Assembly: GCA_033764505.1 (NCBI GenBank)
Contig: JANRIW010000020.1
Coordinates: forward strand, 33,808 to 97,807
Length of the DNA stretch: 64,000 bases
Direction of reading: 5' to 3'
From: Gemmatimonadales bacterium
Lineage (GTDB): Bacteria > Gemmatimonadota > Gemmatimonadetes > Gemmatimonadales > GWC2-71-9
The notes under the pieces are model-generated. The model did no database searches. It had not been told where the DNA came from and saw only the letters and a program-made list of their open reading frames with translations. The number at the start of each line of letters is the position of its first letter. The stretch's first letter is position 1. Shown one piece after another: positions 12,281-24,889 of this stretch. The position numbers were made by a program, and so were the translations under genes.

Positions 12281-12388
12281 GAGAAGCGAGAAGCGAGAAG
12301 CGAGAGGCGAGAGGCGAGAGGCGAGAAGGAGCGGGGTGCCGCGGAATGATCTTTCCGCAGCACCCCGCTTCTCGCTTCTCGCTTCTCG
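12281..12388. repeat. long heptamer-armed hairpin between convergent genes (likely bidirectional terminator)
   Basis: GAGAAGC x3, GAGAGGC x3, GAGAAGG, AGCGGGGTG - inner hairpin GCGGAA/TTCCGC - CACCCCGCT, TCTCGCT x2, TCTCG. Confidence 0.85.
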
Positions 12389-21932: not shown

Positions 21933-22063
21933 GCGAAGCCCGCGAAGCGGGCGAAGTCGAAGGACCTCCCTCCTGGCGAGCCTAGCACAGGTCCTTCGAC
22001 TGCGCAGCCCTGCGGGCTGCTCCGCTCAGGATGACACTTTTCGGACCTACGACCTACGACTCT
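21923..22063. repeat. full GTCATCCTGAGCG multi-hairpin element plus heptamers
   Basis: Element at 21923..22036. GGACCTA CGACCTA CGACTCT. Confidence 0.9.
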
Positions 22064-22395
22064 CCAAGCCGGTACAGCATCACTATGAGCGCGCCGGCCC
22101 CCAATCCAATCGACGGCATCATCTTGGCGAGCGGATTCTTGACCTTGAGATGCATGACCAGCGCGGCGGCCATGAAGGCGGCGATGATGCCGGCGCCGAT
22201 CGCTTCGAGGTTGTCGCCGACGCCGAGGAGGAGGACGGCGCCGGTGAGCTTGGCGGCCCCGGTGAGGTCACGCAGCCAGTCGGGGAGACCGAAGGCGTTG
22301 AAGTCGGCGAGCACCGCCGGATAGCGCACCACCCAGACGTAGATCACGGACATGGCCACGAAGGTCTGCAGCAGGGTCGCAGCGGTGGGGCTCAT
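22054..22395 (-). CDS. DoxX-like small membrane protein
   Basis: 113 aa with 3-4 hydrophobic helices and a KLTGAVLLL motif. Confidence 0.6.
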   Translation of the reverse strand: MSPTAATLLQTFVAMSVIYVWVVRYPAVLADFNAFGLPDWLRDLTGAAKLTGAVLLLGVGDNLEAIGAGIIAAFMAAALVMHLKVKNPLAKMMPSIGLGAGALIVMLYRLGES

Positions 22396-22435: not shown

Positions 22436-22774
22436 TCACCGGGTCTGCGCGACGAGCACCACGTTGAGGACGCAGAGCACGATCGCCGGGAGGATGGCGA
22501 GGAGCGGATCGCGGTCGTGGAGTCGGTAGCCGATGGCCACCAGCATCATCAGGGCGAGGCTGCCGGCGGCGAGCGGGAGCAGCGGCCGGAACCAGAAGCC
22601 CAGCAGCAGGCCGGCGCTCCCCGCCAGGTGAAGCGTGCCGATGACGCTCCGATACGGGCTCAGGCCGTAGCGGGCGAAGTCGGCGACCATCGCCTGCGTC
22701 CAGATCAGCGACGCGCCGTGCCACCCGAAGGCGATGATCGAGATCCCACCGGCGAGGATGACCAGCATTGGCAT
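22436..22774 (-). CDS. DoxX-family membrane protein
   Basis: Start at MPMLVILAGG. Four hydrophobic helices, HLAGSAGLLLGF. Confidence 0.6.
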   Translation of the reverse strand: MPMLVILAGGISIIAFGWHGASLIWTQAMVADFARYGLSPYRSVIGTLHLAGSAGLLLGFWFRPLLPLAAGSLALMMLVAIGYRLHDRDPLLAILPAIVLCVLNVVLVAQTR

Positions 22775-22853
22775 GATGCTGGTGGGTACCCGTGGGGGCG
22801 GAGATCGATCCGGACGTCTTGTATGCGTAGGTGCATGCATCCCAGTGAGCATA

Positions 22854-23084
22854 CCAGTAACCAGTGACCAGTGACCAGGGACTAGGGACTAGGGACCAGG
22901 GACCAGGGACCAGTAACCGGTAGATTCCCCTGGTCACGGGTCACGGGTCACGGGTCACGGGTCACGGGTCACGGGTCACGGGTCACGGGTCACGGGTCAC
23001 GGGTCACAGGTCACAGGTCACAGGTCACAGGTCACAGGTCACAGGTCACAGGTCAGGTCTCACGTCTCACGTCTCACGTCTCAT
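22854..23084. repeat. 33 consecutive in-phase heptamers (231 nt) forming an imperfect giant hairpin
   Basis: CCAGTAA, CCAGTGA x2, CCAGGGA, CTAGGGA x2, CCAGGGA x2, CCAGTAA, CCGGTAG, ATTCCCC, TGGTCAC, GGGTCAC x10, AGGTCAC x6, AGGTCAG, GTCTCAC x3, GTCTCAT. Confidence 0.95.
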
Positions 23085-23086
23085 CA

Positions 23087-23551
23087 ATGACCAAATGGAA
23101 CTCCCCCGCCGACTGGCAGCGTCTCTGTGACGGTTCGGCCTGCCCGATCTGTCTGCGTGGCGAGCCACTGGACGTCATCGCGCCGCTCGACGCCTCGTGG
23201 CTGACGATGTCCGAACGCGCGCCGATGCGCGGGTATGTCTGCCTGGTCTCGCGCATTCATGCGGTGGAGCTGCACGATCTCACGCTGGCGCAGGCCGAGG
23301 CGTTCATGCGCGATGTGCACCGGGTGTCGCGCGTGCTGTCGGCGGTGACGGGTGCCGTGAAGCTCAACTACGAGATCCACGGCAACACGCTGCCGCACCT
23401 GCACATGCACTTCTTCCCGCGCTACGTGGGTGATCCGTTTGAGGGGCGCGCGATCGAGCCGTCGCGGATTGTCGCGCCGGTGTATGCGGACGGGGAGTTT
23501 GCGGTGTTGCGGGAGAGGATGGTGGCGGCGTTGGGTGGGGCGCCGCCCTGA
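23087..23551 (+). CDS. HIT-family hydrolase
   Basis: Histidine triad GNTLPHLHMHFFPRY. The ATG directly follows the 33-unit heptamer array. Confidence 0.8.
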   Translation: MTKWNSPADWQRLCDGSACPICLRGEPLDVIAPLDASWLTMSERAPMRGYVCLVSRIHAVELHDLTLAQAEAFMRDVHRVSRVLSAVTGAVKLNYEIHGNTLPHLHMHFFPRYVGDPFEGRAIEPSRIVAPVYADGEFAVLRERMVAALGGAPP

Positions 23552-24271: not shown

Positions 24272-24889
24272 ATGATGAACAACGACAGGGCGGATGTGCA
24301 GGAAGTGGCCGAGGCGTGGGGCGCGGAGGGGTGGGCCGACCCGCGCGTGGAGCGGAGCACGCGCGCCGTGCTGATGGCGATGGGTCAGCTCCTCCCCGAG
24401 GTGCCGTACGGTGACCTGACCGTACAGCAGATCCTCGACCGGGCGGGCGTGTCGCGCGGCACCTTCTACAAGCACTATCGCAACAAGGATGCGGCGCTCC
24501 GCGCCTCCCTCGGGGCGATGCTCTCGTCGCTGCAGCGCGCGCCGGGGGCGGGGAATCGGCTCTTTCCCGTCCGCGAACTGATCGAGCACGCGGCCAGCGC
24601 CACCGCCCTCGGCGCTTCACTCGAGGCGGCCGACCGCCTGGAGCAGCTCTGGGACGACTTGCGCAGCGAAGTGGCGCTCAGGCTCGAGGCGCAATTGGTG
24701 CCGGTGCCGGGATCGTTTCCAGGGGCGCCGGTGTTGGCATCGCGGGTGTTGGCCGGCGCGATGGTGGAACTGGTGCGCCATGTCGCTGAGGCCAGGGCGA
24801 CTGTCTCCGCGGCCACACTCGATGAGCGCTTCCACCGGATGGCGATGGTGGCGATCGGGCAGTTTGGGTGCGTGCGGCGGGATGGATAG
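24272..24889 (+). CDS. TetR-family transcriptional regulator
   Basis: HTH LTVQQILDRAGVSRGTFYKHYRNKDAAL. Divergent from the membrane protein gene. Confidence 0.75.
   Translation: MMNNDRADVQEVAEAWGAEGWADPRVERSTRAVLMAMGQLLPEVPYGDLTVQQILDRAGVSRGTFYKHYRNKDAALRASLGAMLSSLQRAPGAGNRLFPVRELIEHAASATALGASLEAADRLEQLWDDLRSEVALRLEAQLVPVPGSFPGAPVLASRVLAGAMVELVRHVAEARATVSAATLDERFHRMAMVAIGQFGCVRRDG

What the first reader, a model, noticed from the sequence alone, without database searches (positions are those of the whole stretch)
22854..23084. 33-unit heptamer array occupies the whole divergent promoter region and ends 2 nt before the HIT gene ATG
231 nt consist of perfectly phased heptamers, including GGGTCAC x10, AGGTCAC x6 and GTCTCAC x3. 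The left ten units are roughly the reverse complement of the right-hand ones, giving a giant imperfect hairpin. The array fills the space between divergently oriented genes, DoxX (from 22774) and HIT (ATG 23087). This leaves no conventional promoter or Shine-Dalgarno sequence for the HIT gene. Copy-number slippage here could switch or tune expression of one or both genes.
Basis: seen in the sequence. Interest (0 to 1): 0.6.

Follow-up and report, generated by a model that had tools for sequence, protein, structure and literature searches.

The report
Strain-variable heptamer repeat upstream of HIT
A 231-base run of 7-base repeats between two genes of an uncultured Gemmatimonadales bacterium is real and changes its unit number from strain to strain, but it is the largest of about 680 such repeats in this genome, not a proven dedicated switch.

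Summary
Window 22854-23084 is 33 heptamer slots in one register and ends 2 nt before the HIT start codon.

It is the longest of 677 period-7 arrays in a 3.6-Mb, 68.5% G+C genome. These arrays belong to a repeat class confined to part of one Gemmatimonadales genus. They are 91% intergenic, usually abut stop codons and often form purine-arm/loop/pyrimidine-arm hairpins. This locus is atypical: it lies in a divergent spacer, abuts a start codon, and is G-rich on the sense strand.

Related strains with the same gene order give an allelic series. Five unit-number variants occur: 3+2, 4+2, 4+1, 4+4 and 7+3 units. There is also a decayed copy, and alleles with no array that carry a normal Shine-Dalgarno leader. 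Two forms seem to coexist in one sample.

So slippage polymorphism and loss of the ribosome-binding site are real. However, each gene still has one -10-like hexamer, and nothing shows on/off switching.

My best reading is an in-situ expanded microsatellite that now forms the HIT mRNA leader and at most grades expression. This resembles the Haemophilus hmw1A repeat and the Xanthomonas GGGAATC repeats. It is a new member of a known kind.

The parts
22054..22395 (-). DoxX-2 gene (113 aa, DoxX_2), conserved in all related strains
   Evidence: Pfam PF13564, E 5e-9. Present in L089-L103.
22436..22774 (-). DoxX-1 gene (112 aa, DoxX_2). It is intact here and in L088/L105, and reduced to a roughly 70-nt 3' remnant in the L094-type strains.
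   Evidence: Pfam PF13564. Exact product found on L088. The remnant is seen in L093-L103. Joint 22503->22901 in run X2.
22775..22853 (.). Unique 79-nt spacer on the DoxX-1 side. It contains the only minus-strand TAnnnT hexamer (TATGCT, 22853-22848), a candidate DoxX-1 -10.
   Evidence: The promoter role is inferred only.
22854..22916 (+). Left arm: 9 heptamers (CCAGTAA, CCAGTGA x2, CCAGGGA, CTAGGGA x2, CCAGGGA x2, CCAGTAA). It is the reverse complement of TGGTCAC-like units, is purine-rich, and has 5 GGG tracts on the + strand.
   Evidence: Reproduced exactly in L088.
22917..22930 (+). Non-repeat centre CCGGTAGATTCCCC. It is conserved in the L093-L103 alleles and contains TAGATT (22921-22926), the only plus-strand TAnnnT hexamer and a candidate -10 for HIT.
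   Evidence: For the -10 motif in this genome. Caveat: it resembles the centre of the 32-nt loop core.
22931..23007 (+). TGGTCAC x1 plus GGGTCAC x10. This gives G3N4 spacing and is the second-largest G-quadruplex motif in the genome.
23008..23056 (+). AGGTCAC x6 plus AGGTCAG x1. This is the block shared with the L094-type alleles, which have 3, 4 or 7 copies.
23057..23084 (+). GTCTCAC x3 plus GTCTCAT. This pyrimidine-rich, SD-free block abuts the start codon. The L094-type alleles have 1-4 CCCTCAC units plus CCCCCC in its place.
23087..23551 (+). HIT-family hydrolase gene (154 aa). It is an accessory gene in the genus and is under purifying selection.
   Evidence: Pfam PF01230. Found in 2 of 24 congeners. 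dN/dS is 0.18-0.23 between lineages. Sources name it an Ap4A HIT family hydrolase.

Best explanation
The array is the largest local expansion of a clade-specific class of heptanucleotide microsatellites, typically built as a purine-rich arm, a loop and a pyrimidine-rich arm. At this site a small inverted pair, (GTGACCA)n - centre - (TGGTCAC)n, grew in 7-nt steps by slipped-strand mispairing. Point-mutated units (GGGTCAC, AGGTCAC, GTCTCAC) were each amplified in register. The growth overwrote the ancestral Shine-Dalgarno leader of the HIT gene. I infer that HIT is now transcribed from the TAGATT hexamer in the unique centre. On that reading the whole right arm (about 155 nt here, about 55-90 nt in other strains) is an SD-less, G-quadruplex-prone 5' leader, and the left arm lies upstream of the DoxX-1 promoter. 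Unit number drifts between and within populations. It can therefore grade HIT expression through leader length and structure, but it is not an on/off switch, and the array exists mainly because of the lineage's repeat-generating process. What is shown: the repeat class, its rules, the polymorphism, the SD loss and the intact gene. What is inferred: slippage as the mechanism, the promoter positions and any effect on expression.
For: Genome-wide class. There are 677 period-7 arrays and few unit families, and this one is the longest. 91% of array bases lie outside CDS. Arrays occur in 46% of convergent, 20% of tandem and 13% of divergent spacers. Array edges lie a median of 2 nt from stop codons but 50 nt from start codons. 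In 122 of 127 inverted pairs the purine arm is 5'. The class is restricted to part of one genus.

In-situ stepwise evolution. Blocks of identical units sit in one register. An allelic series with the same synteny has 3+2, 4+2, 4+1, 4+4 and 7+3 units at flank divergence of 1% or less, against 10+6+... here at 7% divergence. In four runs the unitigs break inside the array. In X41, two unitigs (35x and 27x) cover one array segment while the flanks are about 50x.

SD replaced. Array-free alleles in three lineages (L089/90/92, L106, L105) have ...CCAGAGGAGCCCCACCxC-ATG or a GGAG variant of it. All array alleles have repeat units up to 0-2 nt before the ATG. Only 36.5% of genes in this genome have an SD core, so SD-less initiation is normal here.

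Gene still functional. dN/dS is about 0.2.

Promoter inference. TA[GT][AC]TT occurs 301 times sense against 23 antisense upstream of genes. It has a peak 5-8 nt before start codons and T-T enrichment 23-22 nt upstream of the hexamer. TAGATT is the only plus-strand TAnnnT in the spacer. One metatranscriptome unitig begins 22 nt upstream of the ATG, inside the array.
Against: No transcription start or expression data exist for any allele. The RNA evidence is a single low-depth unitig (2.2x) and could be contaminating DNA. TAGATTCCCC also resembles the centre of the 32-nt palindromic core found in many other loops, so it may be a relic rather than a promoter. The -35 position opposite it is poor (GGGACC). 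A consensus sigma-70 scan finds nothing in any allele. Predicted accessibility of the start region is about the same in array and array-free alleles, so there is no computed hint of an expression effect. Array-free and array alleles sit in backgrounds 99% identical, with the differences clustered in the first HIT codons. Recombination, not only slippage, therefore shapes this site. The unit counts of the two long blocks come from one assembly only.
Confidence: 0.6

Rival explanations
1. The array is a dedicated contingency locus. On this view selection maintains it as a phase-variation switch or rheostat for HIT and/or DoxX-1, as in the Haemophilus hmw1A or hifA/hifB promoters.
For: Unit number varies between strains and apparently within one sample. 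The array sits between a candidate -10 and the ATG, like the hmw1A 5'-UTR repeat. It is the longest array of the genome and breaks the genome's own placement rules: only 14 of 297 start-facing array edges lie within 5 nt of a start, and 11 of 53 arrays lie downstream of the -10 motif.
Against: About 680 similar arrays lie next to unrelated genes. HIT hydrolase and DoxX are not surface or host-interaction genes. The 3+2 allele is identical in four unrelated runs. The 7-nt steps would not change -35/-10 spacing for the candidate promoters. Sister strains do without any array.
Confidence: 0.15
2. The array is a structure-forming DNA or RNA element with its own function. It could be a G-quadruplex and/or cruciform that acts as a barrier, insulator or regulator between the two divergent genes, independent of copy-number change.
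For: (GGGTCAC)10 plus 5 GGG tracts in the left arm lie on one strand, making the second-largest G4 motif in the genome. The arms pair at 75% with fold z = -3.5. Comparable GGGAATC repeats form G4 in vitro.
Against: Most unit families of this genome have no G3 tract. The related alleles carry AGGTCAC/CCCTCAC units without G4 potential on that strand. The G-rich block is absent from every other strain, so it is recent rather than conserved.
Confidence: 0.12
3. The array is an operator or iteron-like set of binding sites for a DNA-binding protein, for example the TetR regulator two genes downstream, with NGGTCAC as the recognition unit.
For: Direct heptad repeats serve as regulator sites in other systems, for example TTTTGAT in the cholera toxin promoter (abstract listed). 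A TetR gene lies at 24272-24889.
Against: NGGTCAC arrays occur at more than 20 other sites of this genome and in two congeners. Array-free alleles keep the same TetR neighbour. The units vary freely between strains.
Confidence: 0.05
4. The array is an assembly artefact: a chimeric join or inflated copy number created by collapsing or extending repeats in a metagenome assembly.
For: Several contigs of this assembly begin or end in heptamer arrays. Logan unitigs break inside this array. The counts of 10 and 6 units have no independent support.
Against: The left arm plus centre, and the last 61 nt plus HIT, are reproduced in separate assemblies (L088, L007). The same order DoxX - centre - TGGTCAC - AGGTCAC - HIT is contiguous in 11 contigs from other samples.
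Confidence: 0.03

Closest known systems
GGGAATC / GGGGA(C/T)T heptamer repeats of Xanthomonas and Nostoc (Rehm et al. 2015, PMC4692102)
   Same: Both are genome-wide heptameric SSRs with a strong non-coding bias and are under-represented between divergent ORFs. Both lie at or over stop codons with the G-rich strand on the coding strand, and upstream of genes with the G-rich strand on the non-coding strand. Both include inverted pairs. Unit number and sequence vary between close relatives, and the function is unknown. GGGTCAC has the same G3N4 design.
   Different: Here there are many unit families, most without G tracts. The host is a Gemmatimonadales genus. At this locus the G-rich block is on the coding strand upstream of HIT and touches the start codon, which is the opposite of the usual placement. 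G4 formation was not tested.
Haemophilus influenzae hmw1A (ATCTTTC)n 5'-UTR repeat (Rapun-Araiz et al. 2025, PMC12721329)
   Same: Both are heptamer SSRs upstream of a start codon with a partner region that can form a long hairpin. In hmw1A the repeat is transcribed in the leader, and expression falls as unit number rises. This is the best model for how the present array could grade HIT expression.
   Different: hmw1A is a single dedicated locus controlling an adhesin, and transcription, RNase III cleavage and phase variation have been shown by experiment. Here none of this is tested, the gene is a HIT hydrolase, and the array is one of hundreds.
TAACTGA direct repeats of marine Beggiatoaceae, cyanobacteria and Bacteroidetes (MacGregor 2015, PMC4679880)
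   Same: [quoted passage not shown] Downstream gene functions show no pattern.
   Different: In Beggiatoaceae there is one unit sequence, almost only as direct repeats, and mostly 5' of genes. In this genome the arrays mostly follow stop codons, and abutting a start codon is the exception (14 of 297 edges).
Cyanobacterial STRR heptamer repeats and the enrichment of long 5-11 nt SSRs in free-living bacteria (recalled from the literature: Mazel et al. 1990; Mrazek et al. 2007; not re-read here)
   Same: Both are intergenic tandem heptamers in several sequence families within one genome.
   Different: This comparison rests on memory only. The purine-first hairpin layout and the tight abutment to stop codons were not checked for STRRs.

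Membership tests
Genome-wide bacterial heptameric SSR class (Xanthomonas/Nostoc type, Rehm 2015) | Many tandem heptamer arrays spread over the genome | tested here: met
   TRF finds 677 period-7 arrays, against 15 of period 6 and 32 of period 8. Five unit families account for 63% of the arrays.
Genome-wide bacterial heptameric SSR class (Xanthomonas/Nostoc type, Rehm 2015) | Over-represented in non-coding DNA and under-represented between divergent ORFs | tested here: met
   91% of array bases are outside called CDS, although 89% of the genome is coding. Arrays occur in 46% of convergent, 20% of tandem and 13% of divergent spacers.
Genome-wide bacterial heptameric SSR class (Xanthomonas/Nostoc type, Rehm 2015) | G-rich strand on the coding strand just after stop codons, and on the non-coding strand just before start codons | tested here: met
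   This holds genome-wide: 93.5% of arrays after stops have G>C on the sense strand (n=277), and 89% of arrays before starts have C>G (n=166). This particular locus breaks the rule for its GGGTCAC block.
Genome-wide bacterial heptameric SSR class (Xanthomonas/Nostoc type, Rehm 2015) | Unit number varies between close relatives at the same locus | tested here: met
   There are five length or composition alleles plus a decayed one at flank divergence of 1% or less.
Genome-wide bacterial heptameric SSR class (Xanthomonas/Nostoc type, Rehm 2015) | Units form G-quadruplexes | not testable with these tools
   Only the sequence motif is available: 10 G3 tracts spaced by 4 nt. Most other unit families in the genome lack G3.
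Phase-variable promoter/5'-UTR SSR contingency locus (hmw1A type) | The repeat lies between the transcription start and the start codon and is transcribed | tested here: inconclusive
   A -10-like TAGATT lies upstream of the right arm. One metatranscriptome unitig starts 22 nt upstream of the ATG inside the array of a related allele. No transcription start was mapped.
Phase-variable promoter/5'-UTR SSR contingency locus (hmw1A type) | Unit number changes at high frequency within a population | tested here: inconclusive
   Two unitigs over one array segment in X41, and unitig breaks in four runs, suggest coexisting alleles. However, four other runs carry a single identical 3+2 allele. No rate can be derived.
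Phase-variable promoter/5'-UTR SSR contingency locus (hmw1A type) | Expression depends on unit number | not testable with these tools
   The organism is uncultured and no expression data exist.
Phase-variable promoter/5'-UTR SSR contingency locus (hmw1A type) | A dedicated locus at a surface or adaptive gene, not a genome-wide repeat | tested here: not met
   The genes are a HIT hydrolase and DoxX. This is one of 677 arrays.
Known RNA families (Rfam 15) | Match at the gathering threshold | tested here: not met
   The only hit is a spurious hairpin match to a plant miRNA model, at 30 bits against a gathering score of 128.

The most novel reading that the evidence does not exclude
The heptamer arrays of this Gemmatimonadales subclade may not be passive microsatellites. 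They could be products of an active, polar repeat-generating process: the purine arm is 5' in 96% of pairs, and arrays start within 2 nt of stop codons. Such a process could be coupled to transcription or RNA processing, as RNase III and transcription are needed for hmw repeat change in Haemophilus. On this reading, arrays that reach a start codon, as at HIT, act as modular SD-independent leaders whose unit number sets the translation level. That would make a genome-wide, heritable but quickly adjustable expression code.
Probability: 0.1. Interest if true: 0.7.

Novelty: new member of a known kind. Interest (0 to 1): 0.4.

Why it matters
The locus offers a natural allelic series at one site, in strains that are common in activated-sludge metagenomes: no repeat with a normal ribosome-binding site, then 5, 6, 8, 10 and about 30 units. 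That makes a long-standing question directly testable: do the abundant heptameric repeats of some bacteria do anything to neighbouring genes? It also shows that such repeats can overwrite a Shine-Dalgarno sequence while the gene stays under purifying selection. This bears on how SD-less initiation works in the Gemmatimonadota. By itself the array is an ordinary, if extreme, member of a repeat class already noted in this genome and described in other phyla.

Tried and rejected
1. Orthologous locus in species representatives: HIT occurs in only 2 of 24 congeners and DoxX-1 in 1. The one 65%-identical HIT (G011, L002) has another context and no array. This gives no copy-number information.
2. Public runs for the window strain: only Logan unitigs were available, and they break in the array, so the 10 and 6 unit counts could not be checked.
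3. RNA runs: X25, X26 and X27 hold only related strains as contigs, and several of these libraries are labelled metagenomic. No 5' ends were obtained.
4. Consensus sigma-70 and terminator scans were empty for the window, L089 and L094, and are uninformative in this lineage.
5. RNA accessibility of the start region is about 0.5 in every allele, with no discrimination.
6. Rfam gave no family.
7. The exact product of the 138-aa DoxX ORF from 22852 is not on record, so the shorter start (22774/22768) is preferred.
I did not try it another way.
9. The register kept across the two arms (centre = 14 nt) is probably coincidence, because loops elsewhere are mostly about 32 nt.

Full report
OBSERVATION

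Window 22854-23084 divides into 33 heptamer slots in one register.
- The left arm has nine units of the CCAGTGA/CCAGGGA/CTAGGGA type.
- A 14-nt unique centre (CCGGTAGATTCCCC) follows.
- Then come TGGTCAC x1, GGGTCAC x10, AGGTCAC x6, AGGTCAG, GTCTCAC x3 and GTCTCAT, then CA and the ATG at 23087.

TRF reports the right arm as 17.7 copies at 99% match. The arms pair over 56 nt at 75%. The whole region folds at -100 kcal/mol, z = -3.5 against shuffles.

The flanking genes are a DoxX_2 protein on the minus strand and a HIT-family hydrolase on the plus strand. The HIT start is secure, because homologues from many metagenomes begin at the same M-[ST]-[KN]-W-N residues.

The array covers 74% of the 312-nt spacer, and 79 nt next to DoxX-1 are unique. 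Separate Logan assemblies reproduce the left arm with the centre (L088) and the last 61 nt with HIT (L007). The counts of the two long blocks have no independent check.

GENOMIC CONTEXT

The assembly is 3.6 Mb at 68.5% G+C. Sources name the close HIT protein as from a Gemmatimonadales bacterium. TRF finds 677 period-7 arrays, against 15 of period 6 and 32 of period 8. A handful of unit families dominate, and the present array is the longest.

I used my own codon-model gene calls (3149 genes) to place the arrays.
- 91% of array bases are intergenic.
- Arrays occur in 46% of convergent, 20% of tandem and 13% of divergent spacers.
- Array edges that face a gene's 3' end lie a median of 2 nt from the stop codon (245 of 387 within 5 nt).
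- Edges that face a 5' end lie a median of 50 nt from the start (14 of 297 within 5 nt).
- Arrays after stops are purine-rich on the sense strand in 92% of cases and have G>C in 93.5%. Arrays before starts are pyrimidine-rich in 88%.
- In 122 of 127 adjacent inverted pairs the purine arm is 5'.

These are the same rules that Rehm et al. described for Xanthomonas and Nostoc heptamers.

The class is confined to part of one genus. (CGAGAAG)3 occurs in 10 of 24 congeners, and abundantly in four of those ten; (NGGTCAC)4 occurs in 4. Neither occurs in 16 genomes of other genera of the order.

HOW THIS LOCUS DEPARTS FROM THE RULES

- It lies in a divergent spacer.
- It touches a start codon.
- Its main block is G-rich on the sense strand of the gene it precedes.
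- It lies downstream, not upstream, of the only -10-like hexamer.

STRAIN SERIES

The 90%-identity cluster of the HIT protein has 21 members. Looking up their contigs gave 17 loci with the same order: RibD_C, DoxX-2, spacer, HIT, a 211-aa membrane protein, TetR. The spacers fall into three kinds.

(a) Array alleles share the centre ccagtaaccggtagattcccctggtcac. Their right arm is TGGTCAC + n AGGTCAC + m CCCTCAC + CCCCCC-ATG.
- n+m = 3+2 in seven contigs.
- 4+2 in L098, 4+1 in L101, 4+4 in L103 and 7+3 in L093.
- L104 is a decayed copy.
- These alleles have only two to three left-arm units, and most of DoxX-1 is deleted. The same joint appears in run X2.

(b) Array-free alleles (L089, L090, L092) have a 186-nt unrelated spacer ending ...CCAGAGGAGCCCCACCTC-ATG, a normal Shine-Dalgarno leader.

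(c) L105 and L106 carry toxin-antitoxin modules inserted in the spacer and have SD-type leaders.

Flanks of kinds (a) and (b) differ by about 1%. The window strain differs from all of them by about 7%.

The unit number is therefore not fixed, the array is dispensable, and in every array allele the repeat has taken the place of the SD and reaches to within 0-2 nt of the ATG.

HIT stays under purifying selection in all lineages (dN/dS about 0.2), so it is presumably still expressed. The three differences between the L094 and L089 HIT genes are all non-synonymous. At least two of them lie in codons 2-3, next to the spacer. This points to replacement of the spacer by recombination.

POPULATION DATA

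The L094-type strain is common in activated-sludge metagenomes. In four unrelated runs the 3+2 allele is a single unitig with no indel, so short arrays are fairly stable.

In four other runs the unitigs break inside the array. In X41 two unitigs (35x and 27x) cover the same array segment between flanks of about 50x. One of them has three mismatches, as expected for the 4+1 allele. I infer coexisting alleles.

PROMOTERS AND TRANSLATION SIGNALS

Consensus sigma-70 scans find nothing in any allele, so I derived the lineage's own signal.

Hexamers TAGCTT, TAGATT and TATCTT are strongly sense-biased upstream of genes (26:5, 18:2 and 17:2 in array-free tandem spacers). They have T-T enriched 23-22 nt upstream of the hexamer, which implies a 17-nt spacer. 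They pile up 5-8 nt before start codons (46 sites), the signature of leaderless genes. Overall there are 301 sense against 23 antisense sites.

Within 22769-23090 there are only two TAnnnT hexamers: TAGATT at 22921-22926 pointing to HIT, and TATGCT at 22853-22848 pointing to DoxX-1.

If TAGATT is the HIT -10, the right arm is the 5' leader. It would be about 155 nt here and 55-90 nt in other alleles.

Where arrays and the motif co-occur upstream of a gene, the motif lies between the array and the start in 42 of 53 cases. An array inside the leader is therefore the exception.

One unitig from an activated-sludge metatranscriptome starts 22 nt upstream of the ATG, inside the CCCTCAC units of the related allele. 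This is weak support.

Two caveats apply. TAGATTCCCC resembles the centre of a 32-nt palindromic core shared by 36 other loops. The -35 position opposite TAGATT is poor.

Only 36.5% of genes have an SD core, against 13.4% in a control window, so the lack of an SD is not unusual in this genome.

STRUCTURE

(GGGTCAC)10 is the second-largest G3N1-7 motif in the genome, and the left arm adds five more G tracts on the same strand. The related alleles have no such block, so it is recent.

Predicted accessibility of the start region is about 0.5 in all alleles. Rfam has no match.

INTERPRETATION

The evidence fits a small inverted heptamer element that expanded in place by slippage. Variant units were amplified block by block in register, until the element filled the HIT leader.

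Unit number varies between populations and probably within them. Because the candidate promoters flank or sit inside the element, 7-nt steps change leader length or upstream DNA rather than promoter geometry. A graded effect, as shown for the hmw1A (ATCTTTC)n leader of Haemophilus, is therefore plausible, and an on/off switch is not indicated.

The rivals are listed with their tests: a selected contingency locus, a G4/cruciform element, a protein-binding array and an assembly artefact.

NOVELTY

Heptameric intergenic SSR families are described in Xanthomonas, Nostoc, other cyanobacteria and Beggiatoaceae. I found no paper on them in Gemmatimonadota. An earlier report of this scan already described the family in this genome.

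The new elements here are the allelic series at one site, the displacement of the SD, and the locus's breach of the family's placement rules. I class it as a new member of a known kind, of moderate interest.

Noticed in passing
genome-wide (G000); e.g. window 12329-12365 and C11:116989-117080: Thirty-six loops between inverted heptamer pairs are 28-34 nt long. In an alignment most of them, chiefly those between CGAGAAG/CTTCTCG pairs, share an imperfect palindromic core TGGnnnnGCGGnGA-GATC-nnnCCGCnnnACCA. These elements are therefore composite: repeat arm, REP-like core, repeat arm.
   Followed up: partly
genome-wide (G000): A lineage-specific -10-like motif TA[GT][AC]TT (TAGCTT, TAGATT, TATCTT) occurs with 301 sense against 23 antisense sites upstream of genes. 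There are 46 sites exactly 5-8 nt before start codons, which suggests many leaderless mRNAs. Only 36.5% of genes have an SD core.
   Followed up: partly
L105:617-1200 and 1666-2865; L106:334-995: In other strains the same DoxX-HIT spacer holds inserted toxin-antitoxin modules: HigB/HTH in L106 and an unannotated 81-aa ORF in L105. L105 also has HigB-like/HTH and ParE/antitoxin pairs downstream of HIT. The site is a hotspot for insertions and replacements.
   Followed up: no
window 22504-22900 versus L093-L103: The L094-type strains have lost the 5' three quarters of DoxX-1 together with its upstream region and most of the left arm. A roughly 70-nt 3' remnant is left fused to the repeat. The same joint (22503->22901) is present in run X2.
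   Followed up: partly
L010-L020, 20-60 nt upstream of the HIT homologues: More distant HIT homologues (66-77% identity, other organisms) are preceded by a recurring motif...AACTC(A/C)(A/G)GCGTTAG(G/A)CCGCAC.... It looks like the end of another dispersed repeat family.
   Followed up: no
G000 contig ends (e.g. C8:74, C16:70, C17:108 and C17:135073, C33:34): Several contigs of the assembly begin or end inside heptamer arrays. The repeats limit assembly contiguity, and copy numbers at contig ends are unreliable.
   Followed up: no
L089:1095-1125: The array-free spacer allele contains a perfect 20-nt palindrome GGGCGCAGCATGCTGCGCCC and a near-consensus TATGAT about 40 nt before the HIT ATG. On the other strand a TATCTT lies about 31 nt before the DoxX-2 ATG. 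The array alleles and the window have TACTAT near that position.
   Followed up: partly
G000:C13:55855-55953: This is the largest G-quadruplex motif of the genome: 17 G tracts in a (GGGGCAG)n/(GGGTCAG)n/(GGGACAG)n heptamer array.
   Followed up: no
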